This document shows, one piece after another, positions 1 to 64,000 of a DNA stretch of 64,000 bases. The notes under the pieces are model-generated. The model did no database searches and was not told the DNA's origin. It worked only from the letters and a program-made list of their open reading frames with translations. Numbering within the stretch: the first letter of the stretch is position 1; each line of letters opens with the position of its first letter. This DNA comes from a plasmid. The stretch lies in the sequence record NZ_CP123987.1; one strand, written 5' to 3'. The translations under genes were made by a program, and so were the position numbers.

Positions 1-11
1 GCTTAAATAAT

Positions 12-26807: not shown

Positions 26808-26809
26808 TC

Positions 26810-28671: not shown

Positions 28672-29546
28672 TATTCCTCGTTTCTAATTAAAGAGTCCAT
28701 TAATGTGTCTAAGTTTTGTTGTCTAATTTCTAAATTATCAATTGCTGATAAATAGGGGACTAACTGAGTTATTAATCTATTAACATCACTTGTAATAAGT
28801 GTATAATGGTGGTTCAATTCACTTACTCTAAGTACAGCTGGTAATTTATTAAAAATATCTTCTATCAACTCACTATTGAAGGTTACTTGAACCTTTTTTA
28901 ACTGCTTTCCCATTTCATTTAAACTACCATCAAAAATAATCTTTTGATTATGCAGAAAAATAAACCTATTAGCAACTTTTTCTAATTCTTCTAAATAATG
29001 ACTAGTAATTAAAAATGTTTTCCCTTGTTTCTTTAACTCATCGACATGCTTCCAAAATTTAGTGCGACTTTCTGCATCCATTCCTACAGTAGGTTCGTCT
29101 AAGAAAATTAAATCTGGATTCCCGGCTAAAGTAAGAGCGAACTGTAGCTTTCTTTTTTGACCTCCAGATAATTTATCCATAGGATGGTTTGTATAATTTT
29201 GCAACTCTGATAAAGCTAATATCGCTTGATAAGACATAGGATTACGATAATATGTTCTAGTTAATTTAATTATTTCTTTCACTGTTATTCGATCTAAGGA
29301 GATATTTTCTTGCATCATTACTCCAATTAAATTTTTATCAAATTTTTCTTTCTCAAAAATCTTGCTTTGTCCACTATCTTGTTGAATTAACTTCGTAATA
29401 ATATTGATCAAAGTAGATTTCCCAGCACCATTTTTACCAATTAAGGCAACAATTTCTCCAGATTGAATTGAAAAATTAATATCATTTAAAACAACTTTAT
29501 TTTTATATTTTTTATTGATATTTTTTACTTCAAGTGCGGTGGTCAT
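28671..29546 (-). CDS. ABC transporter ATP-binding protein
   Basis: Walker A GKNGAGKST, signature LSGGQKRKL, Walker B LIFLDEPT. Confidence 0.85.
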   Translation of the reverse strand: MTTALEVKNINKKYKNKVVLNDINFSIQSGEIVALIGKNGAGKSTLINIITKLIQQDSGQSKIFEKEKFDKNLIGVMMQENISLDRITVKEIIKLTRTYYRNPMSYQAILALSELQNYTNHPMDKLSGGQKRKLQFALTLAGNPDLIFLDEPTVGMDAESRTKFWKHVDELKKQGKTFLITSHYLEELEKVANRFIFLHNQKIIFDGSLNEMGKQLKKVQVTFNSELIEDIFNKLPAVLRVSELNHHYTLITSDVNRLITQLVPYLSAIDNLEIRQQNLDTLMDSLIRNEE

Positions 29547-35096: not shown

Positions 35097-35672
35097 GTGA
35101 TTAGTGGTATCTTCTATTTTTATATATTGATGAAAGCGTGGGGAAAAATGACTATACATGATTCGAATGTTCGGGAAAAATTACTTCAATTAGGAAGTCA
35201 AAAACGGTACAATTTTACAGCTGAATATGCAAGGTGTGGTTACAAAGTTACATATAGGCGTGGATTAGATAGAGATAAATTAGCTCCAACAATTATGTTC
35301 AAAAATGTTAAGATAAATAACAATCTAGTTACAGACCATCTGTGGTTCAACTACACAAAAGGCTTTGCTGAGTTGGGAAAACTAATTGTTGGGGATGTTA
35401 TTAGTTTTAATGCAAGAGTTGCTAGCTATGAGAAATTAGGACATAAAATAGATTATAAATTAGAACGTCCAACAAAAGTTAAATTAGTTCCCCATAAAAA
35501 TGGTAAAGATGCTTTGCCTATACCTAACACTACAAAAGGTAAAAATGAGTTGTTGGGATACATTATGCTAGAGAATAAAAAATTTTATCAAGAAAATAAT
35601 CGTCCATATTACCCATGGTATGTTGAAAAGTATAAAAAATTCTTAGATCAAAGATCTTCTAACACTGTTTAA
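35097..35672 (+). CDS. hypothetical protein (true start probably an internal Met, e.g. near 35148)
   Basis: ORF co-oriented after rpe; no family recognised. Confidence 0.35.
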   Translation: MISGIFYFYILMKAWGKMTIHDSNVREKLLQLGSQKRYNFTAEYARCGYKVTYRRGLDRDKLAPTIMFKNVKINNNLVTDHLWFNYTKGFAELGKLIVGDVISFNARVASYEKLGHKIDYKLERPTKVKLVPHKNGKDALPIPNTTKGKNELLGYIMLENKKFYQENNRPYYPWYVEKYKKFLDQRSSNTV

Positions 35673-49226: not shown

Positions 49227-49337
49227 AGTGATTCACACTCCTCTCATTTCTTTAACCAAATCATATAACCTTACTATACTTTTGTCAATAAATTTTAATT
49301 ATAAGTTTGTATTTTCTAATTTTTGGTAAAAATAATA

Positions 49338-49526
49338 TTACTTATTTAATAAACTCTCTAATTCAGCTAAATTGCTTGCTCGTTCTAATTTAGAATCATT
49401 TAAATCATCTATCATCTCTAAGATAGAATAATTTATCCTAGAAGAAGGGGCCCTCCAATCTAATCTACGCACAACTAAAGCTTTTTTAGATTCTATCTTA
49501 ATCTTATTAACTCTACTTTTTTTCAT
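49338..49526 (-). CDS. small hypothetical protein downstream of HicB-like gene
   Basis: 62-aa ORF co-oriented with the two upstream small genes. Confidence 0.3.
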   Translation of the reverse strand: MKKSRVNKIKIESKKALVVRRLDWRAPSSRINYSILEMIDDLNDSKLERASNLAELESLLNK

Positions 49527-49643
49527 AATACATCACTTTCCATAAAAGTATACATCCTATTTGTCGACCAAATTTCTAATCGCTCTATTTATACTGTCAG
49601 AAATATCTTCATCACGAAGTTCAGAATATAAATATAATTTTTC

Positions 49644-49910
49644 TTACAAATCTGGTTCTAAGTTAATTACAATGTTCTGCTTGTAAGGTTTTTCAGGAGT
49701 CATATTGTGATTTTTGCAACACTCAAAATAATCATCAATTGTATCTTCAAAATCATCTTTCAATTCTTGTAATGTATTTCCTTCATAGGATAATAAACTT
49801 CTAATCCCCAAAACTTCGCCATGTAAAATATTATCCTCTAAAGAATACTCTATTGTTCCTTTGTAACCTCTATAGCTCATGACTTCTTGCATTTTTATGT
49901 TTCCTTTCAA
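49644..49910 (-). CDS. hicB: HicB-family antitoxin-like protein
   Basis: 88 aa; YSLEDNILHGEVLGI...GNTLQELKDDFEDTIDDYFE pattern typical of HicB. Confidence 0.55.
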   Translation of the reverse strand: MKGNIKMQEVMSYRGYKGTIEYSLEDNILHGEVLGIRSLLSYEGNTLQELKDDFEDTIDDYFECCKNHNMTPEKPYKQNIVINLEPDL

Positions 49911-49913
49911 TTA

Positions 49914-50195
49914 TTATCTATTTAACTGTATAGTCCAAGTTAAATTGAATAAAAAAACAACATCCCCGTCAACAACGAGGATGTCTTCGATTGTGGTATG
50001 TAGAACCTTACTGAGAATGACTAAGTTATCCAAACTAGGTAGTGATCTACCAGATAACCATTTATAAATGGATTGTGGGTTCTCAAATCCCATAACTGAT
50101 TGAATATCACGTACACTGTACCCATTATTTTTGAATAAACTTTTTAGATTAGCACCAGTTTTTTCTGAATTTATCGAAACATACATTGGCTTCAT
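49914..50195 (-). CDS. small XRE-like HTH regulator
   Basis: 93 aa; HTH-like LKSLFKNNGYSVRDIQSVMGF..IYKWLSGRSLPSLDNLVILSKVL; 3-bp gap to the HicB-like gene. Confidence 0.5.
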   Translation of the reverse strand: MKPMYVSINSEKTGANLKSLFKNNGYSVRDIQSVMGFENPQSIYKWLSGRSLPSLDNLVILSKVLHTTIEDILVVDGDVVFLFNLTWTIQLNR

Positions 50196-50972
50196 GAAAT
50201 CACCTCAATTTAATTATACATACCTCGAACATTTAATACCAAAAATAGCCAACGCAAAATTTGCATTGACTAAAAATTATGTAAACCGACGCGTATTGGC
50301 TTACGTGGGATACTCTTGTATCTGGACTTATTAGACTACTGAATCAGACTAGCACATCATGGCTAGCAACTTCCATGACCTAGTCCGCATTTCAAGTTCA
50401 GGGCATAGACCTTTTCCTATCCAATTTTCACCAAACATGTGCAATGTTCCAGTTAATGTAATATTGTCGATTTTGGCTACTCAAACCTTACTCGTCAGTT
50501 ATAGCTGTGTCACCACAACTTCACGACACGAATTCTTAGTTGATATTCTTCTTTGGTTCCTAAGGTAATCAGCCTTAATTAACTGAAGATGGCATATTGC
50601 GAATCCCTGACGGCAAGTGTCTTAGTTTCAGATATGAGTCCCCTTGCTTCTCTCTACACAACTTTTTTTCGTTGCTCCCAATTAGTACATTAGAAAAAAT
50701 AAACGTATCCGTATATTTCGTCATAGTAGTTATTAAGAGACGTATGGCTAGGCGGCTTGTCACACCTCATCCACTAGCTTCATCGGTACACTTATATACT
50801 AACAAAGCTTAGGTCATTAAACTATAAACTGTTAGGTTAATTTGGGCGATTTCGACATAGGACCAATTTCTTAATTTATGCAAAATAAACTTTGATATCG
50901 CTTTATTTGCATAAATTTTAGAATTTCTCCTGTGTCTAATATTCAAAATTAGCTTTTCATCACCCCAAAATA

Positions 50973-51626
50973 TCAGTCTATTCTTTCTAATTCTATACTT
51001 CTAAAGATGAAATAATCTAAAATTGTTAATATCAAAATCCACATTGCACTAAAATAAAGTTTACTATTATCTGCATGAATCAAATAGTTAATAGGCCATG
51101 CTACGAAACACCAATAGGCTGACATTAAAGTTTTATTACTAGCAAAAATAATAAATAAAATCTCTACTAATGAAAATACTAAATTTATATATTTATTAGT
51201 AACCATATATAAAAACATGTGACTATGATTAAGTAATACTATCAATAGCCACATTGCTATTCCGCTGATTATCCCTAATTTAACTTGGGCTATGGAATAA
51301 CTTATTATCCACCATACAAAAAATGAAATCCACCATAATAATAAGTCTAAGATTAACGTTTTTATTGTAAGTAATTTCACTTGACTATACTTACGAACTT
51401 CTTGAAAATTATTTGCTTCTCTTTCTTGTTCAAAGCATATATTAGTTATCACAGAAATTAAAGATGGATAAGCTAGAGCAAATGCCAGTACAATATTTTT
51501 ATAAGTTAGTAAATTTCGATGCCAATACAAATACCCGTAGGCTGATGCAATTTCAAAAATAGTGAAACTTACTAATAGGTATATAGTAGGACTACTTTTT
51601 AATTTTAATAATTCACTTCTAATCAT
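50973..51626 (-). CDS. nisG: lantibiotic immunity ABC transporter permease, NisG homologue
   Basis: 217 aa, 6 TM; last gene of a nisFEG-like triplet. Confidence 0.75.
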   Translation of the reverse strand: MIRSELLKLKSSPTIYLLVSFTIFEIASAYGYLYWHRNLLTYKNIVLAFALAYPSLISVITNICFEQEREANNFQEVRKYSQVKLLTIKTLILDLLLWWISFFVWWIISYSIAQVKLGIISGIAMWLLIVLLNHSHMFLYMVTNKYINLVFSLVEILFIIFASNKTLMSAYWCFVAWPINYLIHADNSKLYFSAMWILILTILDYFIFRSIELERID

Positions 51627-52335
51627 TTGATTTACCCCATCTTGTAAAATATATTAAAAGTAAAGATATCAATAATGAAAGTAATACAGGACTCATAACA
51701 TCAAAAAGTTGTAAATTTATAATTTTAAAAATTCCTGAGGGCTGTACCCCTAATAGATACTGTGATATTTTATAATGGTACGAGTATGGAAATGCAAACC
51801 ACCATTGTGTTTGAGAAATGATAGATCCAAATAATAAACATACTAACGTATTAACTGCTATAAGCAAATAGCCATTTATAAAATTAGCTAAAAAATATAA
51901 CCACGGTATATTCCAAAATACAGATAACAATAACAGAAATATACTTAGTATACTTTTACTTAGTAATAATTCTGTATAACCACTAAAAAACTTATTTAAG
52001 ACAATTACTAGTATTATAAAAAAAAGACTTGATATTGCAACTCGTACAAAGATTAAGAAAATTTTTGCCAAATAAATTTGGAAACTCCACAAATTATACT
52101 TAACATTTTGAAAGTTTCCTGCTTTTTTCTCCATATTAAAATCCATTAAAAATAATAATCCTATTAGTAGGTATAAAAAAACAGATTCCCACCAATATAT
52201 GGCAAAAGGAGAAAAAATAATTACTCCCCCTACTAAAAAAGCAATTAAACCCGTTAATAAAGGGATGATCCATAAAAGTTTGTTTATTCTAACTTTTTTT
52301 AATTTCAATATTTCAGAAAACAAAGCTTTTATCAT
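51619..52335 (-). CDS. nisE: lantibiotic immunity ABC transporter permease, NisE homologue
   Basis: 238 aa multi-TM, overlapping F and G genes. Confidence 0.75.
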   Translation of the reverse strand: MIKALFSEILKLKKVRINKLLWIIPLLTGLIAFLVGGVIIFSPFAIYWWESVFLYLLIGLLFLMDFNMEKKAGNFQNVKYNLWSFQIYLAKIFLIFVRVAISSLFFIILVIVLNKFFSGYTELLLSKSILSIFLLLLSVFWNIPWLYFLANFINGYLLIAVNTLVCLLFGSIISQTQWWFAFPYSYHYKISQYLLGVQPSGIFKIINLQLFDVMSPVLLSLLISLLLIYFTRWGKSND

Positions 52336-53024
52336 ATGAAACTCTCTCCCTTCATAACATTAAAGAAAATCTCTTCAATATCTTTATAATTACTTTGAAT
52401 TTTATCATATACAACATGTCCTTTATCTAAAATGATAACTTGATCGACGATTCTTCCAATTTCATGTAGCTGGTGACTTGATATCAAAATAGTTACACCT
52501 TGTTTTTTTAATGACTTTAGTAAATCTAAAAATTCAATAACCCCATCAGGATCTAATCCGTTAATTGGTTCATCGAGAATTATAAATTTAGGTTGTGTTA
52601 AAATAGCCATTCCGATCCCCAATCTTTGTTTCATGCCAACTGAAAATTTACCTGCATGTTTTTTATCCGTGCTATCTAAACCAACTCTTTTTAAAACATC
52701 TTTAATTTGATTATTTGGAATATCATATAAAAGTGCTTTAGTTTTTAAATTATCAAAAGCTGATAAATTCGAATAAATTGGTGGTTGTTCAATCAAAGCA
52801 CCAATGTTACTAGTTTTTCCGTGACCTTCAAATAGTACTTGTCCTTTATCTGGTATTTCAATCCCATAAATAATTTTCATTAAAGTTGATTTTCCAACAC
52901 CATTCATCCCAAATAAACCACAAATAGTACCTTTTTCAATCGTAAAGCTTACATCCTTTAATACTTCTCTATCCTGGTATTTCTTAGAAATATTTTTCAC
53001 TTCAATTTTCATCTTATATATCAC
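52332..53024 (-). CDS. nisF: lantibiotic immunity ABC transporter ATPase, NisF homologue
   Basis: Walker A GMNGVGKST, signature SVGMKQRLGIGMAIL; high similarity to recalled NisF (ALIEQPPIYSNLSAFDNLKTKALL). Confidence 0.85.
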   Translation of the reverse strand: MIYKMKIEVKNISKKYQDREVLKDVSFTIEKGTICGLFGMNGVGKSTLMKIIYGIEIPDKGQVLFEGHGKTSNIGALIEQPPIYSNLSAFDNLKTKALLYDIPNNQIKDVLKRVGLDSTDKKHAGKFSVGMKQRLGIGMAILTQPKFIILDEPINGLDPDGVIEFLDLLKSLKKQGVTILISSHQLHEIGRIVDQVIILDKGHVVYDKIQSNYKDIEEIFFNVMKGESFI

Positions 53025-53075
53025 CTTATCTTTAATTATTCGGTAATAGTATAAGTAATTAAATTCATAATTAGA

Positions 53076-54242
53076 TCAGAATTTCTGGATTCCTAACTTT
53101 ACACTCACCCCATCATTTACTAGATTTGTAATTATCATGGTACCACCATGTCTGACTGCAACCGCTTGTGCAAAAGATAGTCCAATTCCATAATGCTTTC
53201 CACTACGGCCTTTATCTTCAGTAAAAAATAACTTTTGCGCATTAACTTGTGCTTCTTCTGAAAATGGTGCCCCATTATTCCATATTTCAAACCATAAAAA
53301 TTTTAAATCTTCAGTTACAGTAACCGATACTTGGGGATTACTTTTATCCGCATACTGACACGCATTAAGAAAAATGTTGATTAGTGCTCGTTTTAGAGCT
53401 GGAACATTAGCATGAAATTTCTTTAAATTAGTTTTTACCTTTAATCGATTATTCGTTTTGTTGACTATGGCAATATCTGTTAGTTCAAGAAAAAGTTCTT
53501 TAATAAATTCATTTAAATTTATTTCTTCGCTTATTGAATTTAAATTTAGTAACTTAGTATAATTAATCATTGTATTAAAATAATTTTCTAAAGTTTGAAT
53601 ACTGTTTTTCATAGATTCCATAAATTCTAATTGTCTCTTATCAGGATTAGTCAGTTCCAACAACTCTATATTTCCTTTTAATACAGTAAGTGGTGTTTTT
53701 ATATCATGAGATAATGCTGCTACCTGAAATGATAAATCTTCTTTTTCTATCCGTTCAGTCTCAATTAAAGTTGATAACTCATTACTTTTTTGATAGAGTT
53801 GCTTTAATACAGTATCAAATTCTTTAATTTTCGACTTAGGATAATCTTTAGTAACCTTATTCCCCATATTTAAAGCAATCTTTTGAATAGCTGTAAAATT
53901 TTTTGAAATCTCATGAATTAGTTTATAAATTGCAATAATGATTATTAATGATTCGTATATAATCAAAAATATATATGATATTTGATTATACGAAAACTTT
54001 CTCAAGACTGGATTAGTAAATTCCGGAACACTATTTTGTCTAATCACTAAGCTATATAACTTATTAGAAGATATAGTATAACTTGTAGTCCCATTTATAT
54101 AACTTTTATTCTTTACTTTAGCTAAGTAGTAATTATCTTTATCATTTTTTTGATATCTACTTGCTACAATTTTTCCTGTTCTCCTATCGAATACAATAAA
54201 GTCATAAGGATATTTTTTCATCGTTTGCCTAATATCCGTCAA
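53076..54242 (-). CDS. nisK: sensor histidine kinase, NisK homologue
   Basis: 388 aa; H-box LSHDIKTPLT and HATPase domain; paired with a NisR-like regulator. Confidence 0.8.
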   Translation of the reverse strand: MTDIRQTMKKYPYDFIVFDRRTGKIVASRYQKNDKDNYYLAKVKNKSYINGTTSYTISSNKLYSLVIRQNSVPEFTNPVLRKFSYNQISYIFLIIYESLIIIIAIYKLIHEISKNFTAIQKIALNMGNKVTKDYPKSKIKEFDTVLKQLYQKSNELSTLIETERIEKEDLSFQVAALSHDIKTPLTVLKGNIELLELTNPDKRQLEFMESMKNSIQTLENYFNTMINYTKLLNLNSISEEINLNEFIKELFLELTDIAIVNKTNNRLKVKTNLKKFHANVPALKRALINIFLNACQYADKSNPQVSVTVTEDLKFLWFEIWNNGAPFSEEAQVNAQKLFFTEDKGRSGKHYGIGLSFAQAVAVRHGGTMIITNLVNDGVSVKLGIQKF

Positions 54243-54265
54243 AGTAGTTTTATTAGAATCTAATA

Positions 54266-54895
54266 CTAAATAAACTTTATTCGGATTTGATATATATATT
54301 CGGAAATAGATCCAAATAAAGTTTCTGCATATTCGTCATATACATTATTATAAATGTCTTCACGACTATAAATATGAGAAGTCCTTCGTGAGAGCAATTC
54401 TAAAATATCATATTCACGACTAGTCAAAGGAATATCTTGACTATTAACGCATACCCTTCGTTCTTCCAAATAAAAAGTTATTTTCCCCATATCACGCTTA
54501 ACTTCTGCGAAATCCCGAACTGCTTGACGACTACGTTCTTCTCGTTTAATATTTGCATCAATTTTAGCTAATAACTGTTTCAAACTAAAAGGTTTGGTTA
54601 TATAATCATCACCACCAATTTTTAAACCATATAAAATATCTTCTTCATCATCTTTAGCACTTATAAAAATAATTGGCGTTGAAATCTTAGAACGAATCTG
54701 ATAACAAATTTCAGTTCCTGATATCTTTGACATCATAATATCTAATAAAATTAAATTAAAACCCTCAAAATCTGATAATTTTAACGGAACATGAACATTT
54801 TGGCAAGTTACAACCTCATAATTTTTCATTTCTAATGCTGTTTTCATAAGTTTTAAAATTTCTACATCATCATCTATAACTAAGATTCTATACAT
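54266..54895 (-). CDS. nisR: OmpR-type response regulator, close NisR homologue, C-terminus about 20 aa shorter than NisR
   Basis: MYRILVIDDDVEILKLMKTALEMKNYEV...ITKPFSLKQLLAKIDANIKREER...YLEERRVCVNSQDIPLTSREYDILELLS..ISEYIYQIRIKFI matches recalled NisR nearly colinearly; stops right after IRIKFI whereas NisR continues into the winged-helix wing. Confidence 0.8.
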   Translation of the reverse strand: MYRILVIDDDVEILKLMKTALEMKNYEVVTCQNVHVPLKLSDFEGFNLILLDIMMSKISGTEICYQIRSKISTPIIFISAKDDEEDILYGLKIGGDDYITKPFSLKQLLAKIDANIKREERSRQAVRDFAEVKRDMGKITFYLEERRVCVNSQDIPLTSREYDILELLSRRTSHIYSREDIYNNVYDEYAETLFGSISEYIYQIRIKFI

Positions 54896-54931
54896 ACGTC
54901 CTCTTCCTTATAATAATTTTTATAACTACAG

Positions 54932-56152
54932 TTAAAAATCATCAAATAACATTAATGATTTCATCCATTGCGTTTTCCCTTTATTTGAAAAACACTCATT
55001 TAAAGTTAAAATAATACCCGTTGTTCCCTCAAGAAAGCCTAAATTTCGAATATCTTTGTCAAAAATACTTTCTATTTCATCAGTATAGTTATTTATAAAT
55101 GTATCAAATTTTCTCGTTTTTGTAAGTTTCCTAAATAAAATGCATATCGAAACTATCCCTGACTTGCCATGACAAATCATGTTGGAATCTACATTCCGCA
55201 TTTCCTTAGTAGCTCTATATAGTATTTCTATTGCTTTTTTTATAAGGTATGAATTATCTTGAATTAGTCCAATATATAAATATAAAACACTTATTCCTGG
55301 ACTACCGTAACACCATGCGTCTCTTATAAATAAATCATTATCTTTTAAAATTGTTCTATTATTAACCAATTCATTATAATCTATTCCATCTTTCCAATGA
55401 AATTTATTCTTATCAACTAATTCAAATTTTTCATAAATCTGAATAATCCTTTCTAATCCGTGTAATATTTCCTTTTTCATAAAGCCCTTTTTATACGCAT
55501 AAGCCAATACACTTCCTACACCAGCAAGTCCATGTGACATACCTGTATTTAGACAACCATTAGGATAAATTTCGTTTTCTGCCTCTGACATTTGGTTACC
55601 TGTTTTAATATACATCGCTATCAATGAATCATTATCATCTAATAAGGTTAATAAAAAAATAATAATTTTTGTCACTAATTTGATATCTATATTATCTATT
55701 AAAAGCAGATACATGAGAATTCCTGATAATCCTTCAATCACATCATAATTAGGTGGAGTAACATTTCCAATATTAAACTCTCCAATTTCTTTGTCTACAT
55801 AATAACTAATGTAATCATTTAGACTTGCAATTAAATTTTGAAATCTCAAATCTTTTTTGAGTGGTAATAAACTTAATGCAATCCCAGCTGCACCTGAATA
55901 TAGAGAACCTGTTAAAAGTCCATATTTTGATAACTTTCCATATAAATAGTCACAATACTAATCAATTTTGGACTTATATGTCCTATCTAAATCTTCCATC
56001 TCTAATAACAGTAAAATAACCCCTGGTAATCCCGAAGAAAGCGTGAATTCTTCGAAATTGTATCGATAAGCATTCTGTTCAATTCTCCTGTCCCATTCTA
56101 ATATCACTCTGCCAAATTTATTTTTTAAAATTTTTCTTTTTATTTCTTCCAT
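54932..56152 (-). pseudogene. nisC: nisC-like lanthionine cyclase (LanC) interrupted by in-frame TAG at 55958-55960
   Basis: ORFs 55958..56152 (N-terminal 64 aa) and 54932..55849 (WCYGSPG and CHGKSG zinc-ligand motifs) are in the same frame, separated only by an amber codon (+ strand cta at 55958-55960); the combined length of about 406 codons matches LanC. Confidence 0.65.
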
Positions 56153-57938
56153 ATTTTTCTGCCCAATATAGTTCTTGATAGAAACTACAATCTTTTAAAA
56201 GTTCTTCATGAGTTCCAATACCTACTACTCTTCCTTTATTCATAACAATTATTTTTGATGCCTTACGAGCTACATTTAAATCATGTGAGATAAAAATAGA
56301 TATATTATCTTTGGATAGATTTACAAAATAATCAAATATTTCTTTTTCTGAAATTGGATCTAGCGCTGCACTTGGTTCATCTAATATATATACAGAAGCA
56401 TTTTTAAAAAAAGCTCTAGCCAAAGCTATTTTTTGCCACTGACCACCTGATAATTGCCTCCCATTTTGGAACCAAGTTCCTAATTGTAAATTTAAATTAT
56501 ATTCTCCATTCTCTTTTAAAAAATTTAACCTTAATTTATCCATAATATGTATAATCTTATTATCATCCCACTTCTCTGCAATATTACCAAGACCAATATT
56601 TTCCCTTAAAGTTAGCTCATATTTAACAAAATCTTGGAATAATATCGATATATTCTTTTGATAAAAATCTGTCGATATATGCTTATCTTCAATACCGTTA
56701 TAATATATATGACCTTTAGATGGTGTGTATAACTCTGAGATTAACTTTACTAGAGTACTTTTACCAGATCCATTTTCCCCTATTATCGCAATTAGTTCCC
56801 CTGTATGCATAGAAAAGTTTATTTTTTCTAAAGCATTGACAGAAGAGTTAGGATACTTATATTCAACATCTATTAGATCTATCCTTTTTATTCTGTTCTC
56901 ATCACCTATCCCTATGTTTTCACGATAATCACTTTGATTTTCTATTTTCAAAAAATTAAGTAATTGCTCCATAAACAAACTAGTATTATAAATAATATAA
57001 ATATTTTGTATGATTGTTTGTGAATAGCCATTTATCTTTGTAATTGCTTGCATAAGACTAACTAAATTTCCTATTAATATTCTTCCAGCTTGTACAGATA
57101 CTATAATAGTGCATATAACAAAAATATTGATAAAGTCTAATAAAATTTGAAGTCCCGAATTAAAATATGCTTTCTTTCTAGCAATAAGCAAATCTTGTAA
57201 TATAAAATCTTTTTTTAATTTCTTATACTCTTCCACAAAATAATCACTTAAATTATTTAATTTAATTTCCTTAAAAGAAAAGTCATGTGTCAATAAATAA
57301 ACTATATACCACGACTTTCTTTCTGCACTCGCTCTTTTCCATTGTATTAAAAATTCAAGTTGACCTACTTTTAAAAATATAATTAAAGATAACATAGGAG
57401 TTACTAATAACAGCAATCCTATCCATATGTTCCACGCCGCAACAAAAATCAAACTAGTCAGTAAAGATATAAAAGCAGCCAGCATAGTAATAACAGCATT
57501 AAAAAGTTGAAATGGTTTATACGTACTATCCTGTGTTATTTTCTCAATAAGATTATACATATCTGATTGTTCATAATCTGTCAACTTTAAGGAGGTTGTT
57601 TTTTTTATCAATTTTAAATTAATATTGTAAGAAAGCCACATATTAAATTTTCCGTTTATATAATTTTCTAATTGAGATAATATTACCGTAAATATTTGTA
57701 GTATTAAAAAATAAATAATATTATATACAAGCTGCATTCCTCGACTAAATATACTATTGATCAGATTTTGATAAACTATTAAATTTAATAGCGGAATTAA
57801 TGCCGTTACTATATTTAAGCACATTAAGTATGTTGCATATTTTCTTTCTAATTGAAAAATTAACTTAATCGTATCTGGAAGTGTTAATAATGTCTTAAAA
57901 AAATTTTTTGATGTTAGTTTTTTTATTTCATCCATCAT
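56118..57938 (-). CDS. nisT: lantibiotic ABC exporter without peptidase domain, NisT homologue
   Basis: 606 aa; 6-TM domain plus C-terminal ABC (GENGSGKST, LSGGQWQKIALARAF); overlaps nisB stop and nisC start. Confidence 0.85.
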   Translation of the reverse strand: MMDEIKKLTSKNFFKTLLTLPDTIKLIFQLERKYATYLMCLNIVTALIPLLNLIVYQNLINSIFSRGMQLVYNIIYFLILQIFTVILSQLENYINGKFNMWLSYNINLKLIKKTTSLKLTDYEQSDMYNLIEKITQDSTYKPFQLFNAVITMLAAFISLLTSLIFVAAWNIWIGLLLLVTPMLSLIIFLKVGQLEFLIQWKRASAERKSWYIVYLLTHDFSFKEIKLNNLSDYFVEEYKKLKKDFILQDLLIARKKAYFNSGLQILLDFINIFVICTIIVSVQAGRILIGNLVSLMQAITKINGYSQTIIQNIYIIYNTSLFMEQLLNFLKIENQSDYRENIGIGDENRIKRIDLIDVEYKYPNSSVNALEKINFSMHTGELIAIIGENGSGKSTLVKLISELYTPSKGHIYYNGIEDKHISTDFYQKNISILFQDFVKYELTLRENIGLGNIAEKWDDNKIIHIMDKLRLNFLKENGEYNLNLQLGTWFQNGRQLSGGQWQKIALARAFFKNASVYILDEPSAALDPISEKEIFDYFVNLSKDNISIFISHDLNVARKASKIIVMNKGRVVGIGTHEELLKDCSFYQELYWAEKYGRNKKKNFKK

Positions 57939-60898
57939 TATTTCCCTTTCAAAATATATTTTTCAGACATAATCATTTTTTTTACAATAAAATACAGATT
58001 TTGTTCCCTAACCCTATTAATTCCAAATAACCTATTATTATGTACATGTATAATACTATCCATAATAGTGTCAGCATTTTTTTTATCAATTATTAATTTT
58101 AGTTTTTTAATCTCTTCCTTAAGTCTATTAAAGTTGTATTTGTCAATCTCATATATGTCAGTTAACTGATTAAATACTACACTTTTATAGTATTGTATTT
58201 TAGACCTTACATTTTTATCTACCTTATTGGGACAGACTTTATCTAGAAAACATAAAATGTCTTCATTTGTTTTATAAAATATTTTTAAATAAAAATAAAT
58301 CATTGCAACTGCAATATCATCAAGTTTATCTTCCATGTTCTTTTCTTTTATAAATTTCAAATACTTTATTACAAGTTTAGAATCTTCACAGAAAATATTT
58401 TCAGCTATATCTATTGCATTAACTCCTCCATATCTCTCAATTTCGCGATCATATGTAGAAATATCAAAAGTCGATAAAATACCATTTCTATGACCTTGCT
58501 CCAAATCTTTTTTAATAACTTCATATATTTTATATAAATTATTACCACTTATCCTTATCCTTATTTGTGGTACTGGATCCATATAACGTAAGAAAAATAG
58601 TTTTCCGTCTAATTTTTCTACCTTTTTTTGAATCAGAGGTATGTAAACTCGTATAAACTCTTCTTGTCTCCTAGTCGACATATACACTTTTAGATATAAC
58701 CAATCATTGAATGGCAATTTCTCTCGAACATGTTTGGAGATTCTCTGTTGTTTTTCCTTGTTTACTTTTTTAACATCGAATTTACTATTAATAACTGGAA
58801 CCACTATCTCTGATATTTTTCCTTCACTATCTTTATATATCATGTCTTTATTATTAAAATATTCTTGTATAATGGCATGACCATTCTTTTCTATATTTCT
58901 TTTTATTTCTGACATAAACAGTTCAACATCAAGTGAATTTTTACGATTAATATATAGTTTGTTATCACCGTCAACAATATAAATTTCATTCGGTATATTT
59001 CTCTGCTTTATAATCGACTCTATTGCTATATTACTTAATTCAAATTTAAATATTCTCCATGTCTTAGGACTGACTACTATATCCTCAAACATAATTCGTG
59101 GAATAAAATTCATATCTTTATAGATTAAATCCCATGGTACATATCCAAAATTATTATTTATTGAAATTTCACATAAAAATCTTAGTTCATTACTAAATAA
59201 TGTCTTGTTATACATGCTTGTTACATAAAACTTCATTTTTTCTTGAGTAGACACATCATACGCATAAAAATTTTCATTTTCATCTAATCCAATATAAATA
59301 TTAGTTAGCCTTACTTCAGATTGATCAGTACTTGAGAAAATAGGAAGAACTTTTTCTCTTACAAAAGATGTTCGCATTATATTAGCGTGTCGTATATTTT
59401 CAGGAAGAAAAACTATTTCACAAGACGTCACCCCTTCTTCAATATTTGCAGCTTTCACTTGTTTAAGTGTCTTCATGTGATAATCCCTTAATTTATCTGA
59501 TAATAATGAGAACCTTCCAGAGGATCCCCCTATATTATTACTGCCTATAATATTGCTTAATGCTAAAGTTTTCTTCTTATTAATTTGGACCATATGAAAA
59601 AATAATTCTATTCCTTGTATTGAGGTACTTTCTTTGGAATTCAGATTTCTATAATAATTAGAAAAGCATTTCAAATTAATTTCCTCTCTATTTAATAAAG
59701 CTTCTATATATTTATTAATATACATTTCTTTTTCATCATGGGAATAATATGACGTTGGAGGCTCTAATTCAAAAACTTCATTCTGAGGATGCGTATAATC
59801 ATACGGTGCGCCAATTCCTTTTATTGGATCAAATAGTTCTATTAACTGCACATCTTGATCAATACCATATTTTTCAATGAATTTATCTTTATAGTCATCA
59901 AAATAAGTCCTAGTTACTGATTTAACAGTATTAGTTATAAAATTTGAAAATTTCTCTATTCTTTGTTTATTACTATTATCAATATATATATTCCCATCAT
60001 TATATAAATCTACTTGAATATAATTATCACTTTTATTAAGTCTAGCCATTTGGTGATATATTTCAATTAATTTATCAGAACCCGAACCTATTTCAATATG
60101 TGTATATTCTTCAATTAACTCTTGTATCTTTGTTAATATTTCTACATATTTTTTACTAACATCTATTTCCCTAACTTTCATTATGAAGTCTGACATAGAA
60201 AAATTAATTAGTATATTTTCTTGTAAATTTGATATTAGATAATGATTCTCTACTAAATCATTAATATATTCTTTTGTTAAATTTAAGTATTCATTACCAT
60301 ATATTGTTATAACCTTTTCTATGATTTCACTATATGTCTTATAAGTTTGGCTACACTCTTCTGATATAATTCGATAAACTTTAGAGTTATTAATACTAAC
60401 TTCCTCTAAATCTTGATCATTTATTGAATATAATTGCATAACACGATTTCCACTAATGTAATTTCCATTATTAGATATGAAAGATAAGTTTGATTGATAG
60501 TCCTTTTCTAATTTAAAAATTACATCTGTTAACCATTTAATATCTATAAAAACTACTTTGTGTGTTTTCCCTAATTCTTTCTTATCACCCTTAACGGTAA
60601 ATTTACCATTAGAAGTTTCACTAAATAGTCCAAAAGGAGTTGCTCGATAATAGCTCCTTTTATAATATTTATATATTGATTCAAAAAAATTTTTTTCTTT
60701 CTTTTTCTTTAGTTTTCCTGCATTATACTTTTTAAGCATTCCATACAGCTTAGGATTAGCCAATAATATTTGTTCAAGAAAAATATTATCATTTTTAATA
60801 ATTTCAATAAATTCCTTATAATTATTGAAATTTTGACTTTTTTCATATGTTTGAATTGTATTACGTATCATTACATCACTAACATTGAAATTATTCAT
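57938..60898 (-). CDS. nisB: class I lantibiotic dehydratase, NisB homologue
   Basis: 986 aa; N-terminal FLEQILLANPKLY, FESIYKYYKRSYYRATPFGLFSETS, EIVFLPENIRHANIM and C-terminal HVHNNRLFGI segments colinear with recalled NisB. Confidence 0.9.
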   Translation of the reverse strand: MNNFNVSDVMIRNTIQTYEKSQNFNNYKEFIEIIKNDNIFLEQILLANPKLYGMLKKYNAGKLKKKKEKNFFESIYKYYKRSYYRATPFGLFSETSNGKFTVKGDKKELGKTHKVVFIDIKWLTDVIFKLEKDYQSNLSFISNNGNYISGNRVMQLYSINDQDLEEVSINNSKVYRIISEECSQTYKTYSEIIEKVITIYGNEYLNLTKEYINDLVENHYLISNLQENILINFSMSDFIMKVREIDVSKKYVEILTKIQELIEEYTHIEIGSGSDKLIEIYHQMARLNKSDNYIQVDLYNDGNIYIDNSNKQRIEKFSNFITNTVKSVTRTYFDDYKDKFIEKYGIDQDVQLIELFDPIKGIGAPYDYTHPQNEVFELEPPTSYYSHDEKEMYINKYIEALLNREEINLKCFSNYYRNLNSKESTSIQGIELFFHMVQINKKKTLALSNIIGSNNIGGSSGRFSLLSDKLRDYHMKTLKQVKAANIEEGVTSCEIVFLPENIRHANIMRTSFVREKVLPIFSSTDQSEVRLTNIYIGLDENENFYAYDVSTQEKMKFYVTSMYNKTLFSNELRFLCEISINNNFGYVPWDLIYKDMNFIPRIMFEDIVVSPKTWRIFKFELSNIAIESIIKQRNIPNEIYIVDGDNKLYINRKNSLDVELFMSEIKRNIEKNGHAIIQEYFNNKDMIYKDSEGKISEIVVPVINSKFDVKKVNKEKQQRISKHVREKLPFNDWLYLKVYMSTRRQEEFIRVYIPLIQKKVEKLDGKLFFLRYMDPVPQIRIRISGNNLYKIYEVIKKDLEQGHRNGILSTFDISTYDREIERYGGVNAIDIAENIFCEDSKLVIKYLKFIKEKNMEDKLDDIAVAMIYFYLKIFYKTNEDILCFLDKVCPNKVDKNVRSKIQYYKSVVFNQLTDIYEIDKYNFNRLKEEIKKLKLIIDKKNADTIMDSIIHVHNNRLFGINRVREQNLYFIVKKMIMSEKYILKGK

Positions 60899-60977
60899 TT
60901 TTTCAAGCCCCTTTCACCTATTAAAAAAATGGGATAGCAAATCATCAAATTGATCTACGCTATCCCTTACTTTCTTA

Positions 60978-61157
60978 CTATTTACTTATATGTACATGAC
61001 AACCACATGATGCAGTTTTCATTGTACATCCCATTAGTGCACCTGTTTTGCAACCTGGGGTACAAAGTGAGTAGCTTGTAATTTTAACTGAATAATTTGA
61101 ATTTGTACTTTCCTTTGATACTTTTACTAAATCCAATTTAAAATCATTAACACTCAT
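60978..61157 (-). CDS. nisA: nisin-family class I lantibiotic precursor peptide (59 aa), not in the supplied ORF track
   Basis: own translation of the reverse strand: MSVNDFKLDLVKVSKESTNSNYSVK-ITSYSLCTPGCKTGALMGCTMKTASCGCHVHISK; GGAGG RBS 8 nt upstream; FNLD-type leader box (FKLDL); all nisin ring-forming Ser/Thr/Cys conserved; directly upstream of nisB. Confidence 0.85.
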   Translation of the reverse strand: MSVNDFKLDLVKVSKESTNSNYSVKITSYSLCTPGCKTGALMGCTMKTASCGCHVHISK

Positions 61158-61221
61158 TTAGAAAACCTCCTAATAACCCTTTAATTGTTTGTTCTAGAAC
61201 GTCACTATAATATGTTATTAT

Positions 61222-61239
61222 TTTCAGATTTTGTTCAGA
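61222..61239 (-). promoter_or_regulatory. NisR-type direct-repeat operator (TCTGA-N6-TCTGA) in the precursor-gene promoter
   Basis: minus strand reads TCTGAACAAAATCTGAAAA followed by a -10-like TATTATAGT about 45-60 nt upstream of the lanA ATG; same TCT-N8-TCT spacing as the nisA promoter. Confidence 0.6.
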
Positions 61240-61382
61240 ATACATATTATTTAAACTGATAATTTTAAAACCATGGAAAAATCTTTAAAATAAAAAATGC
61301 CAAAGATTAACATTTCAGCAATGTAACCTTCAGCATTTTCTTAACTTAAACTATTTTTAATTAGATTCAATTCTAATATTTT

Positions 61383-62489
61383 CTAACCTAAAAATTCAAA
61401 AACATCTTTGCGGTCATATAACTTAAATACTTTTTCAAATAAGAATTGACCGACAAGTGACGCAATAACTGGAATAACTAACCATGCTAGCAATGCTGCG
61501 ACAACGCCTAAGCCTTTTTCAATTGATGCTAATGGTCCTACTAAACCTACTAAACCAAAACCACCGGAAGCAGGAGAACCTGAAATTGACATCAAAGCTA
61601 CAGGAACTGCAGAAATTATTGCTGTAAAGAAACATGGTACTAAGATAATTGGACGTCTAAATAAGTTAGGCATCATCATCTTCATCGCACCTAAGGCAAT
61701 CGCAATTGTTACCCCTGGCTTGTTAACTTTCCATGAGTTTACTACAAGTACAAGTGTTGTTGCAGCAACTCCCATTGCAGCAGCACCAGCAGCCAAGCCG
61801 TTAACTTGGATAGCCATTGCAATCGCTACTGTTGAAATTGGAGAGATAATTAACACTGCAAAAGAGCAGGCAATTAAAATACACATTAAAACTGGTTGTA
61901 ATTCTGTAAATGTGTTAATCACATTACCAATTGCGGAAGTTATCGCTGTAACATATGGATACATATAGAATCCAATTAAGCCAGCACCTGTTCCTACTAC
62001 AATTGGTGTTAAAACAATTGCTACTGATCCAAATTTATCGCCTATCAACAGAATTAATCCAACTGCAATCGATGCTGTTAACATGGTATTAATAATATCC
62101 CCTGTTCCAGCACCTACATAGGCACCTGTTTTATTCAACGCTGGGAAGTATTTAATTACGCCAGAACCTACAAATGCGGCTCCACCAACTACGGTCATCT
62201 TCATGCCATCAAAGCCAAACTTTTGAGCAATCAATGTACCAATAATTAAAGGTGTTCCTAATTGGAAAATAATTGCTGCTTGTCCTAAATGTACGGCAAA
62301 AGGATTAGTGCCGAACATCTTGAGGATAGCGGCAAGAACAGCATTAGGAATTAAACCAACTATAATCCCGATGGCAGTACCGCCTAAAACACGATCAATG
62401 AAAACTTTGGGTGTAATCTTTGTTGTTTCCAAATTCGTCACCTTCTTTATATAAAATATACACATTATTATAAGTGAGATTGTGAGCAA
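61383..62489 (-). CDS. polytopic membrane protein, putative permease (PTS EIIC-like / sugar permease family uncertain)
   Basis: 368 aa, about 10 TM, Gly/Ala-rich helices; no soluble domain. Confidence 0.45.
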   Translation of the reverse strand: MLTISLIIMCIFYIKKVTNLETTKITPKVFIDRVLGGTAIGIIVGLIPNAVLAAILKMFGTNPFAVHLGQAAIIFQLGTPLIIGTLIAQKFGFDGMKMTVVGGAAFVGSGVIKYFPALNKTGAYVGAGTGDIINTMLTASIAVGLILLIGDKFGSVAIVLTPIVVGTGAGLIGFYMYPYVTAITSAIGNVINTFTELQPVLMCILIACSFAVLIISPISTVAIAMAIQVNGLAAGAAAMGVAATTLVLVVNSWKVNKPGVTIAIALGAMKMMMPNLFRRPIILVPCFFTAIISAVPVALMSISGSPASGGFGLVGLVGPLASIEKGLGVVAALLAWLVIPVIASLVGQFLFEKVFKLYDRKDVFEFLG

Positions 62490-62638
62490 TGTAAATATAT
62501 TTTTCTTTAGTTTCTTTCTTTTATTAGAAAAAAACGTAAAAAATTAATTAAATTTAACACTTATATTTAAGTATTCTGTTATAATGATGATATAATATAT
62601 ATTGTAAAGGTTATCATTTATATGAGGAGGAATTTTTA

Positions 62639-63634
62639 ATGGTTTCAATCAAAATGTTTGGTGTTCGTGATGAAGAACGTCCAATGGCTGAAAACTGGGC
62701 AAAGGAACACAACGTTAAAATTGATATGACTAGTGACATCCTTACATCTGATACTATCGATGAAGTTAAGGGTTTTGACGGTCTAACTTTAATGCAAGTA
62801 GCAGAAGTTACAGATGACTTATATCCTAAATTGAAAGAATTTGGTATCAAACAAATCGCACAACGTAGTGCTGGTTATGATATGTACAATTTAGATGCTG
62901 CTAAAGAAAATGGCATTATTATTACTAATGTGCCTAGCTACTCCCCAGAATCAATTGCTGAATATACTGTAACTACAGCATTGAACTTAGTACGTAAATT
63001 CCCACTAATTGAAAAACGTGTTAAGGAACATAATTTCTCATGGGAACCTGAAATCAGAGGTCGTGTTATCGGTGACATGACAGTTGCTGTTATCGGAACT
63101 GGCCGTATTGGTTACCATGTAGCTAAAATCTTCCATGGTTTTGGTGCTAAAGTTGTCGGATATGATCTATATCCTAGTGACAAATTAGACGGTATCTTGG
63201 AATATCGTGATTCTGTAGAAGATGCAATCCGCGATGCAGACATTATTTCTTTACATATGCCTGCTTTCAAGGAAAACCACCACATGTTTAACTACGAAAT
63301 GTTCAAGAAATTCAAATCTGACGCTGTATTAGTTAACATGGCTCGTGGTGCTTTAATTGATACAGAAGATTTATTGAAAGCTTTAGATGATGGCCTTTTG
63401 GCTGGAGCTGGTCTTGACGTTTACGAACACGAAGGTCCATTAGTTCCTATTGACCTAACTGGAAAAGATATTGAAGACGAAACATTCAAGAAAGTACTTG
63501 AATCTGATAAGATTATCTACTCACCACACGTAGCATACTACACTGATGAAGCTGTTAGAAACTTAGTTGAAGGTGGCTTAAATGCTACTTTGGAAGTATT
63601 GGAAACTGGCGATGCTTCAACACGTGTAAACTAA
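62639..63634 (+). CDS. ldhD: D-lactate dehydrogenase (D-isomer-specific 2-hydroxyacid dehydrogenase)
   Basis: 331 aa; NAD motif GTGRIGYHVA, catalytic-domain R/E/H pattern, overall Lactobacillus D-LDH-like. Confidence 0.85.
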   Translation: MVSIKMFGVRDEERPMAENWAKEHNVKIDMTSDILTSDTIDEVKGFDGLTLMQVAEVTDDLYPKLKEFGIKQIAQRSAGYDMYNLDAAKENGIIITNVPSYSPESIAEYTVTTALNLVRKFPLIEKRVKEHNFSWEPEIRGRVIGDMTVAVIGTGRIGYHVAKIFHGFGAKVVGYDLYPSDKLDGILEYRDSVEDAIRDADIISLHMPAFKENHHMFNYEMFKKFKSDAVLVNMARGALIDTEDLLKALDDGLLAGAGLDVYEHEGPLVPIDLTGKDIEDETFKKVLESDKIIYSPHVAYYTDEAVRNLVEGGLNATLEVLETGDASTRVN

Positions 63635-63650
63635 TTAGTTTAATCCTAAT

Positions 63651-63686
63651 AAAAGCCTCTGAGAATCCATCTCAGAGGTTTTTTGT
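63651..63686 (+). terminator. rho-independent terminator after ldhD
   Basis: stem cctctgaga/tctcagagg followed by T6. Confidence 0.7.
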
Positions 63687-63696
63687 TATATACTTA

Positions 63697-63987
63697 CTAT
63701 AAGTTATTTATATTTTTATCACCGTATAGACTTTCCCAGTCATTTCTAAAATCTGCCACAGCTTGAGAAATAGACGGCATCTTAAAAGCAGATGCTACAA
63801 TATCAGGACCAACTGTTACAGCTTGAGCACCATTACTTAATGCTTCATTTACTTGTGCTACATTATGGAAACTTGCAGCTAAAATTTTAGTATTGCTATT
63901 ATCTAAATTAATTCTTTTAGATAGATTTCTAATAACTTCAGCTGAATTAATATTTTGATTTAACATTCTATTATAGTAAGGAGCCAA
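63697..63987 (-). CDS. transaldolase / fructose-6-phosphate aldolase family protein, C-terminal part (5' end beyond window)
   Basis: partial ORF reaching the window edge; C-terminal region consistent with the TalC/FSA family. Confidence 0.55.
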
Positions 63988-64000
63988 GTAGTCAGCACCA

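What the first reader, a model, noticed from the sequence alone, without database searches (positions are those of the whole stretch)
50973..61239. Nisin-type cluster lacks nisI and nisP and has a non-canonical leader cleavage site
Gene order is A-B-T-C-R-K-F-E-G on the minus strand. The gap between the nisC-like stop (54932) and the nisR-like start (54895) is only about 36 bp, so no immunity lipoprotein (NisI) or leader protease (NisP) gene sits where the Lactococcus nis operon has them. No subtilisin-like ORF occurs anywhere in the window. The leader ends ...NYSVK directly before ITS instead of the NisP site ASPR before ITS, which implies leader removal by a different, unlinked protease. Self-protection would rest on the FEG transporter alone.
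Basis: partly seen in the sequence, partly recalled or inferred. Interest (0 to 1): 0.65.

Follow-up and report, generated by a model that had tools for sequence, protein, structure and literature searches.

The report
Decayed copy of nisin S cluster
This is the already published nisin S lantibiotic gene cluster of the gut bacterium Ligilactobacillus salivarius, which is known to lack the nisin immunity and leader-protease genes, and the copy in this window is also broken in three of its nine genes.

Summary
The gene order A-B-T-C-R-K-F-E-G on the minus strand, the 36-bp C-R gap, the absence of nisI and nisP and the leader ending NYSVK|ITS are all real. None of it is new. The 59-aa precursor is identical to nisin S of Ligilactobacillus salivarius P1CEA3. 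The 2023 description of that cluster already reports nssABTCRKFEG, no nisI, no nisP, Lys at -1, an unlinked protease and FEG-only immunity (PMC10095417).

The whole 64-kb window is about 99.97% identical to L. salivarius megaplasmid pLS2102-15_1.

- nssC carries an in-frame TAG (Gln65 to stop, 55958-55960).
- A 203-bp deletion between two 26-bp direct repeats (junction 54272-54297) removes the DNA-binding wing of NssR and the first transmembrane helix of NssK.

[quoted passage not shown] This strain therefore most likely makes no active nisin S.

One nuance on the protease claim. Window 3-797 is the LPQTG-anchored tail of a conserved megaplasmid S8 cell-envelope proteinase. Its catalytic domain lies just outside the window. 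It is an untested candidate leader protease.

Verdict: already known, low interest.

The parts
50949..61350 (-). Nisin S island: 10,402 bp here and 10,605 bp when intact. GC is 26.6% against 32.8% for the rest of the window. It sits between an HTH/HicB region and a PTS EIIC gene of the megaplasmid.
   Evidence: Comparison with the empty site in pHN3 of L. salivarius CECT 5713 (L012): window 49948-50948 and 61351-64000 are contiguous there apart from 46 bp. No terminal repeats or transposase genes were found.
61207..61239 (-). Putative NssR-dependent nssA promoter: nis-box-like TCTGA-N6-TCTGAA, 13 nt from the second TCT, then a -10 TATTAT.
   Evidence: Sequence. The same architecture occurs only here and upstream of nssF (the pattern was defined post hoc). 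The resemblance to lactococcal PnisA (TCT-N8-TCT) is from my own knowledge and was not tested.
60978..61157 (-). nssA, the 59-aa precursor: 25-aa leader ending NYSVK and a 34-aa core ITSYSLCTPGCKTGALMGCTMKTASCGCHVHISK.
   Evidence: Pfam Gallidermin and TIGR03731. Leader and core are identical to published nisin S. 27/34 residues match nisin A.
60923..60966 (-). Stem-loop GGGATAGC...GCTATCCC followed by a T-run, between nssA and nssB. Likely a leaky terminator or attenuator.
   Evidence: Read directly from the sequence. Not picked up by the simple terminator scan because the loop is longer than 8 nt.
57938..60898 (-). nssB, lanthipeptide dehydratase, 986 aa, intact.
   Evidence: Lant_dehydr_N and Lant_dehydr_C. 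50% identical to lactococcal NisB. The exact protein is listed in 535 blocks of the public assembly collection.
56118..57938 (-). nssT, ABC exporter, 606 aa, intact. It has no peptidase domain.
   Evidence: ABC_tran. 62% identical to lactococcal NisT.
54932..56152 (-). nssC, LanC cyclase, a pseudogene here: CAG(Gln65) to TAG at 55958-55960.
   Evidence: In-frame stop seen. It is the only difference from the intact 406-aa NssC of pLS2102-15_1. The same 64 + 305 aa split appears in independent run assemblies L004 and L006.
54266..54895 (-). nssR, OmpR-type response regulator, truncated to 209 aa from 229. It lacks the C-terminal wing ...APFKLNPVQTIRGVGYKWYEE.
   Evidence: Trans_reg_C matched only positions 2-56 of 77. 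Aligned with the intact protein.
54272..54297 (.). Junction of the 203-bp deletion. One hybrid copy remains of a 26-bp direct repeat AAACTTT[A/G]TTCGGATTTGATATATAT, which lies in nssR and in nssK in intact alleles.
   Evidence: BLAST pieces overlap by 26 bp. The repeat copies are at L003 7272-7297 and 7475-7500.
53076..54242 (-). nssK, histidine kinase remnant, at most 388 aa against 447. The first ~59 residues, including transmembrane helix 1, are missing.
   Evidence: HisKA and HATPase_c are retained. The N-terminus is compared with the intact protein.
53048..53080 (-). Putative nssF promoter with the same architecture as PnssA (TCTGA-N6-TATGAA-N10-TATACT). It overlaps the nssK stop codon.
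52332..53024 (-). nssF, ATPase of the LanFEG immunity transporter. The likely start is the ATG at 53012, giving 226 aa.
   Evidence: TIGR03740 at 252 bits, below the 310-bit cutoff. 59% identical to lactococcal NisF. Gene callers use the 226-aa form.
51619..52335 (-). nssE, LanFEG permease, 238 aa.
   Evidence: TIGR03732 MutE/EpiE family at 93 bits, below the cutoff. 44% identical to lactococcal NisE.
50973..51626 (-). nssG, second LanFEG permease, 217 aa. Assigned by position and hydrophobic sequence only.
   Evidence: No Pfam or NCBIfam hit. Its position and overlapping start match nisG in the nisin-type operon.

Best explanation
The region is the nisin S biosynthetic island (nssABTCRKFEG) carried on the repA-type megaplasmid of Ligilactobacillus salivarius.

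How intact alleles work. Steps 1-3 follow from homology to the nisin system; step 5 rests partly on the published mass.
1. NssB dehydrates Ser and Thr in the NssA core.
2. NssC closes five thioether rings.
3. NssT exports the modified precursor.
4. A protease that is not part of the island cuts after Lys-1.
5. The mature 3347-Da peptide presumably signals through NssK and NssR to nis-box-like promoters upstream of nssA and nssF.
6. NssFEG alone supplies partial self-immunity.

The island never contained nisI or nisP in any allele seen.

The copy in this window is a decayed allele. A nonsense codon truncates NssC after 64 residues. A 203-bp deletion by recombination between repeats removes the DNA-binding wing of NssR and the first transmembrane helix of NssK. 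This strain is therefore most likely a non-producer with a silent or uninducible cluster. Non-production is inferred and was not measured.
For: - The precursor is identical in leader and core to published nisin S.
- Domain content of all genes fits.
- The window is collinear with pLS2102-15_1 at about 99.97% identity over its whole length.
- Intact references have NssC of 406 aa, NssR of 229 aa and NssK of 440-447 aa. The window has Q65* and the 203-bp deletion.
- The same lesions occur in 8 independent run assemblies.
- The literature reports nssABTCRKFEG without nisI and nisP, Lys at -1, a 3347-Da product and a producer partly sensitive to nisin S (PMC10095417). [quoted passage not shown]
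- The computed core mass minus 8 H2O is 3347.04 Da.
- tblastn finds no NisI or NisP homologue in the window.
- Island borders were mapped against an empty site.
- Paired promoter motifs lie upstream of nssA and nssF.
Against: - Non-production by this strain is inferred from sequence only.
- Reinitiation downstream of the TAG (the TTG at 55849 would give a 305-aa fragment lacking the N-terminal quarter of the LanC fold) cannot be formally excluded. Neither can spontaneous, non-enzymatic cyclisation.
- NssR-dependence of the two promoters is inferred from resemblance to lactococcal nis-boxes, recalled from memory.
- I could not confirm that the window is p612A itself, because that record is not in the searchable collections.
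Confidence: 0.9

Rival explanations
1. The cluster in this window is a working nisin S producer: an unlinked protease removes the leader and FEG gives immunity.
For: nssA, nssB, nssT and nssFEG are intact. Near-identical intact clusters produce nisin S in P1CEA3.
Against: NssC stops at codon 65. NssR lacks its wing and NssK lacks transmembrane helix 1. The authors of PMC10778751 mark the equivalent genes in p612A as putatively non-functional.
Confidence: 0.05
2. The stop codon and the deletion are sequencing or assembly artefacts, and the real genome carries the intact cluster.
For: There is only a single-base difference in nssC. The deletion lies between repeats, a place where assemblers can collapse sequence.
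Against: The exact truncated 209-aa NssR is on 9 contigs, and the 8 read back come from separately assembled runs of one series. They are 99.98-100% identical to the window (6 of 8 at 100%), and the two that cover nssC codon 65 also show the 64 + 305 aa split. A 26-bp repeat is far shorter than typical read lengths. An independent paper reports the same lesions in a complete plasmid.
Confidence: 0.03
3. For intact alleles, the 'missing' leader protease is the conserved megaplasmid-borne, LPXTG-anchored S8 cell-envelope proteinase whose tail is at window 3-797. The protease would then be unlinked to the island but on the same replicon.
For: The protein has Peptidase_S8, fn3_5 and an LPXTG anchor, with a KxYKxGKxW signal peptide. 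It is present on 30 of 31 L. salivarius megaplasmids. It is extracellular and wall-anchored like NisP. Subtilin is matured by non-dedicated S8 proteases (cited in PMC10095417).
Against: It is a C5a-peptidase/SpyCEP/lactocepin-type enzyme. NisP does not appear among its listed PDB matches, and lactococcal NisP aligns to it only at E = 0.004. In 2102-15, the only complete plasmid here with an intact nisin S cluster, the gene is split by an in-frame TAA between signal peptide and catalytic domain. There are no cleavage data. For nisin O, all genome-mined candidate proteases failed and only trypsin worked (PMC11811420).
Confidence: 0.15
4. For intact alleles, the leader is removed in the gut mainly by host trypsin acting at Lys-1, as proposed for nisin O. 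No bacterial protease would then be dedicated to it.
For: Lys at -1 is shared only with nisin O1-3 among nisin variants, and both clusters lack a protease. Trypsin activates pre-nisin O. L. salivarius is a gut organism.
Against: P1CEA3 releases the mature 3347-Da peptide in pure culture on TSB, with no added protease. At least one bacterial activity therefore cuts at this site.
Confidence: 0.1

Closest known systems
Nisin S cluster nssABTCRKFEG of Ligilactobacillus salivarius P1CEA3 (megaplasmid pMP1CEA3; PMC10095417) and of strain 2102-15/LS7247 (pLS2102-15_1, NZ_CP090412.1)
   Same: The 59-aa precursor is identical. Gene order and megaplasmid context are the same, and nisI and nisP are absent. 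The window is 99.97% identical in nucleotides to pLS2102-15_1.
   Different: The window carries nssC Q65* and a 203-bp nssR-nssK deletion. It spans 10,185 bp from A to G, against about 10,385-10,388 bp when intact.
Nisin S cluster on p612A of L. salivarius AR612 (PMC10778751)
   Same: [quoted passage not shown]
   Different: Identity with the window could not be checked at sequence level, because p612A is not in the searchable collections.
Lactococcus lactis nisin A/Z/Q cluster nisABTCIPRKFEG
   Same: The order of shared genes is the same. The core is 27/34 identical to nisin A. The FNLD-type leader box (here FKLD) and the CTPGC motif are present. There is a two-component system plus FEG, and the promoters are nis-box-like.
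   Different: There is no nisI and no nisP. The leader ends SVK instead of ASPR/ASTR. The proteins are only 44-76% identical: B 50, T 62, C 48, R 74-76, K 53, F 59 and E 44. The cluster is on a Ligilactobacillus megaplasmid and not a conjugative transposon.
Nisin O cluster of Blautia obeum A2-162
   Same: It has no protease gene in the cluster and Lys at -1 of the leader. Maturation by an external protease is proposed.
   Different: Nisin O has four structural genes and two RK systems. Only trypsin has been shown to mature it, whereas nisin S is matured in pure culture.
Nisin H, J, G and kunkecin A clusters
   Same: They lack a nisI homologue and rely on LanFEG for immunity.
   Different: Their listed gene orders each include a LanP-type gene, and their gene orders differ.

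Membership tests
Nisin-type class I lanthipeptide gene cluster (gallidermin/nisin family) | LanA precursor of the gallidermin/nisin family, with an F(N/K)LD leader box and the ring A/B lipid II-binding motif CTPGC | tested here: met
   Pfam PF02052 and TIGR03731 match above their cutoffs. DFKLDL and SLCTPGC are visible in the sequence. The best PDB match is nisin.
Nisin-type class I lanthipeptide gene cluster (gallidermin/nisin family) | LanB dehydratase and LanT exporter | tested here: met
   Lant_dehydr_N/C at 986 aa and ABC_tran at 606 aa. They are 50% and 62% identical to lactococcal NisB and NisT.
Nisin-type class I lanthipeptide gene cluster (gallidermin/nisin family) | Intact LanC cyclase | tested here: not met
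   The LANC_like domain is present, but the gene is interrupted by TAG at codon 65 in this window. It is intact (406 aa) in pLS2102-15_1 and in metagenome contigs.
Nisin-type class I lanthipeptide gene cluster (gallidermin/nisin family) | Dedicated S8 leader peptidase LanP in the cluster (present in the canonical nisin A cluster, not universal) | tested here: not met
   No Peptidase_S8 in any window ORF of at least 150 aa. tblastn with NisP finds no hit in the window. The island borders leave no room for it.
Nisin-type class I lanthipeptide gene cluster (gallidermin/nisin family) | LanI immunity lipoprotein (present in the canonical cluster, not universal) | tested here: not met
   tblastn with lactococcal NisI (Spa1_C family) finds no hit in the window or anywhere on pLS2102-15_1.
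Nisin-type class I lanthipeptide gene cluster (gallidermin/nisin family) | LanFEG ABC immunity transporter | tested here: met
   F matches TIGR03740 and E matches TIGR03732, both below the curated cutoffs. They are 59% and 44% identical to NisF and NisE. G is assigned by position only.
Nisin-type class I lanthipeptide gene cluster (gallidermin/nisin family) | Functional LanRK two-component regulator | tested here: not met
   Both genes are present, but a 203-bp deletion truncates them: NssR loses its wing and NssK loses transmembrane helix 1. Both are intact in reference alleles.
Nisin S (nss) cluster of L. salivarius | Precursor identical to NssA, with core ITSYSLCTPGCKTGALMGCTMKTASCGCHVHISK carrying the unique T20 and S25 | tested here: met
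   59/59 residues match the published leader and core.
Nisin S (nss) cluster of L. salivarius | Order ABTCRKFEG on the repA-type megaplasmid | tested here: met
   PMC10778751.
Nisin S (nss) cluster of L. salivarius | Production of the 3347-Da peptide | not testable with these tools
   Shown only for P1CEA3. Predicted to be absent for this allele.

The most novel reading that the evidence does not exclude
The nisin S island could dispense with nisP because the L. salivarius megaplasmid it landed on already encodes a wall-anchored S8 cell-envelope proteinase (tail at window 3-797) that matures the Lys-1 leader. Protease and lantibiotic would then be functionally coupled on one replicon without being clustered.
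Probability: 0.12. Interest if true: 0.35.

Novelty: already known. Interest (0 to 1): 0.1.

Why it matters
It matters little beyond correct annotation. Nisin S, its compact nisI- and nisP-less cluster and its Lys-1 leader were published in 2023. The broken allele seen here was reported the same year.

The practical points are these:
- A genome-mining hit for nssA in L. salivarius does not imply a producer. nssC, nssR and nssK must be checked for the Q65* codon and the 203-bp repeat-mediated deletion.
- At least one other public contig (L002) carries an independent break, in nssT.
- The identity of the protease that matures nisin S remains open. The conserved megaplasmid S8 proteinase is a cheap candidate to test.

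Tried and rejected
- I suspected the 750-bp non-coding stretch downstream of nssG (50200-50948) might hold nisP or nisI remnants. This was rejected: it is native megaplasmid DNA, present at 98% identity in pHN3, which lacks the island.
- I looked for terminal direct or inverted repeats, or mobility genes, at the island ends. None were convincing.
- A scan of GTDB representative genomes with NssB found only one chicken-gut MAG contig at 99% nucleotide identity. It is binned as 'Candidatus Coprovivens', probably a mis-binned L. salivarius contig. No donor lineage emerged.
- A protein search for NssB relatives found the nearest non-self homologue at only 50% identity (lactococcal nisin Q type). 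The origin of the island stays unknown.
- Pfam and NCBIfam gave nothing for NssG.
- The simple terminator scan missed the nssA-nssB stem-loop, which I read by eye.
- I could not retrieve p612A or pMP1CEA3. Neither appeared in the plasmid-collection search.
Full report
**What is there**

The minus strand of window 50973-61157 carries nine co-directional genes. Their products match these families:
- Gallidermin/nisin precursor (nssA, 60978-61157)
- Lant_dehydr_N and Lant_dehydr_C (nssB, 57938-60898)
- An ABC exporter (nssT, 56118-57938)
- LANC_like (nssC, 54932-56152)
- Response_reg plus Trans_reg_C (nssR, 54266-54895)
- HisKA plus HATPase_c (nssK, 53076-54242)
- A lantibiotic-protection ABC ATPase (nssF, 52332-53024)
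- A MutE/EpiE-type permease (nssE, 51619-52335)
- A second hydrophobic protein with no family hit (nssG, 50973-51626)

The nssC stop and the nssR start are 36 nt apart. The precursor reads MSVNDFKLDLVKVSKESTNSNYSVK|ITSYSLCTPGCKTGALMGCTMKTASCGCHVHISK.

**It is nisin S, and the finding is already published**

Leader and core are identical, residue for residue, to nisin S of Ligilactobacillus salivarius P1CEA3 (PMC10095417). That paper already makes these points:
- The 10,385-bp cluster has the order ABTCRKFEG.
- Nisin S and nisin O1-3 are the only variants with Lys instead of Arg at -1.
- A protease encoded elsewhere must remove the leader.
- FEG-only immunity is weaker, because purified nisin S partly inhibits its own producer.

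The strain secretes a 3347.15-Da peptide in pure culture. I compute 3347.04 Da for the 34-aa core minus eight waters. Cleavage after Lys-1 is thus experimentally supported. A 2026 review repeats all of this.

**Genomic context**

The whole window is collinear with megaplasmid pLS2102-15_1 of L. salivarius 2102-15 (NZ_CP090412.1) at about 99.97% identity and wraps across the record origin. Thirty other L. salivarius megaplasmids match only the flanks.

In pHN3 of strain CECT 5713, window 49948-50948 and 61351-64000 are adjacent apart from 46 bp. The island is therefore exactly 50949-61350. It is 10,402 bp long and has 26.6% GC, against 32.8% for the rest of the window. It has no terminal repeats and no mobility genes. 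Nothing else belongs to it, so there is no room for a hidden nisI or nisP.

**Direct tests for nisI and nisP**

Pfam scans of all 47 ORFs of at least 150 aa gave no Peptidase_S8 and no NisI-type (Spa1_C) family. I fetched a lactococcal nisin Q-type cluster (B-T-C-I-P-R-K-F-E-G, locus L017) and ran its proteins by tblastn against the window and the complete reference plasmid.
- NisI gave no hit anywhere.
- NisP gave no hit in the window.
- The shared proteins are 44-76% identical: B 50, T 62, C 48, R 74-76, K 53, F 59 and E 44.

A search of the large protein collection shows that the nearest non-self NssB relative is only 50% identical. The donor of the island is unknown.

1. nssC has an in-frame TAG at 55958-55960. 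The reference has CAG, so this is Gln65 to stop. It is the only difference from the intact 406-aa protein.
2. Relative to the reference, 203 bp are missing at 54272-54297. In intact alleles a 26-bp sequence, AAACTTT[A/G]TTCGGATTTGATATATAT, occurs once near the 3' end of nssR and once in the 5' part of nssK, in different reading frames. The window keeps a single hybrid copy, the signature of a repeat-mediated deletion.

As a result:
- NssR ends at ...YIYQIRIKFI and loses its last 22 residues, including the wing TIRGVGYKW of the winged helix. Trans_reg_C is matched only over positions 2-56 of 77.
- NssK loses about 59 N-terminal residues, including its first transmembrane helix.

These lesions are not artefacts. 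The exact truncated 209-aa NssR is on 9 public contigs. The eight read back come from separately assembled runs of one series (SRR26908824-38) and are 99.98-100% identical to the window (six of the eight at 100%). The two that cover nssC codon 65 show the same 64 + 305 aa split. By contrast, the intact NssB protein is listed in 535 blocks of the assembly collection.

This allele is published too. [quoted passage not shown] The window is very probably that plasmid or a close relative.

**How it works**

For intact alleles the homology-based pathway is as follows:
1. NssB dehydrates the core.
2. NssC cyclises it.
3. NssT exports it.
4. An external protease cuts after Lys-1.
5. The mature peptide presumably signals through NssK and NssR.

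Two sites share the architecture TCTGA-N6-T(C/A)TGAA-N10-TAT(T/A)(A/C)T. One lies upstream of nssA (61207-61239) and one upstream of nssF (53048-53080). That pattern, defined post hoc, occurs nowhere else in the window. From my own knowledge it resembles the TCT-N8-TCT nis-boxes of lactococcal PnisA and PnisF. A stem-loop with a T-run follows nssA (60923-60966).

In this window a wingless NssR and an NssK lacking transmembrane helix 1 should leave both promoters uninduced. NssC truncated at residue 64 cannot form rings. The most likely phenotype is therefore no active nisin S and little FEG expression. This is inferred and was not measured.

**A nuance on 'no subtilisin-like ORF in the window'**

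The ORF at the left edge (3-797, plus strand) has an LPQTG anchor. It is the C-terminal 265 aa of a protein of about 1,500 aa annotated on pLS2102-15_1 as an S8 family serine peptidase.
- It carries Peptidase_S8, fn3_5 and Gram_pos_anchor domains, preceded by a KxYKxGKxW signal peptide.
- Its closest solved relatives are C5a peptidase, SpyCEP and cell-envelope proteinases. NisP is not among the listed matches.
- It is conserved on 30 of 31 L. salivarius megaplasmids.

It is only a lead. In 2102-15 an in-frame TAA separates the signal peptide from the catalytic part. There are no cleavage data. For nisin O, all mined candidate proteases failed and only trypsin worked (PMC11811420).

**Verdict**

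Both the architecture and the decay are already in the literature. Novelty: already known. Interest: low.

Noticed in passing
window 3-797 (+): This is the C-terminal 265 aa, with an LPQTG sortase anchor, of a ~1,500-aa S8 cell-envelope proteinase whose catalytic domain lies just left of the window. The gene is conserved on 30 of 31 L. salivarius megaplasmids. In pLS2102-15_1 an in-frame TAA after the KxYKxGKxW signal peptide splits it. It is an untested candidate for the unlinked nisin S leader protease.
   Followed up: partly
L003 7272-7297 and 7475-7500 (window junction 54272-54297): In intact alleles the same 26-bp sequence occurs in nssR (encoding YIYQIRTKF) and in nssK (encoding YISNPNKV), in different reading frames and 203 bp apart. 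It forms a built-in deletion hotspot that inactivates both regulators at once.
   Followed up: partly
L002 12961-14776: Another public contig (SRR22112528) has NssB identical to the window's, but its nssT is split into 226 + 387 aa. This is an independent decay event in the same cluster.
   Followed up: no
window 49304-61350 compared with L012 and hits H3-H12: The interval between the oppA-like gene and the PTS EIIC gene varies among L. salivarius megaplasmids. It holds a chloride channel in pHN3, DUF3800 plus HTH in badger isolates, a type I restriction system in a swine isolate, and HicB/HTH plus the nisin S island here.
   Followed up: partly
window 24358-25179 (+): The choloylglycine (bile salt) hydrolase ORF is only 273 aa and matches profile positions 1-267 of 316. 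The corresponding stretch has no listed gene in pLS2102-15_1. It is probably a truncated bsh pseudogene.
   Followed up: no
window 26202-29546 (-): A four-gene module: ABC ATPase, ABC-2 permease, HisKA_3 kinase and a LuxR-type response regulator. It resembles peptide-antibiotic sensing and efflux modules and could contribute to lantibiotic tolerance independently of FEG.
   Followed up: no
window 4072-5349 (+), 11742-12569 (+), 21989-23107 (-): Mobile-element genes on the megaplasmid backbone: an IS605-family TnpB/OrfB, an IS3-family transposase and a XerS-type tyrosine recombinase. None is adjacent to the nisin island.
   Followed up: no
window 30074-31453 (+), 35097-35672 (+), 2652-3383 (+): Three ORFs of 459, 191 and 243 aa have no Pfam family at E <= 1e-5. 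The last is annotated on the reference plasmid as an FAD-dependent oxidoreductase.
   Followed up: no
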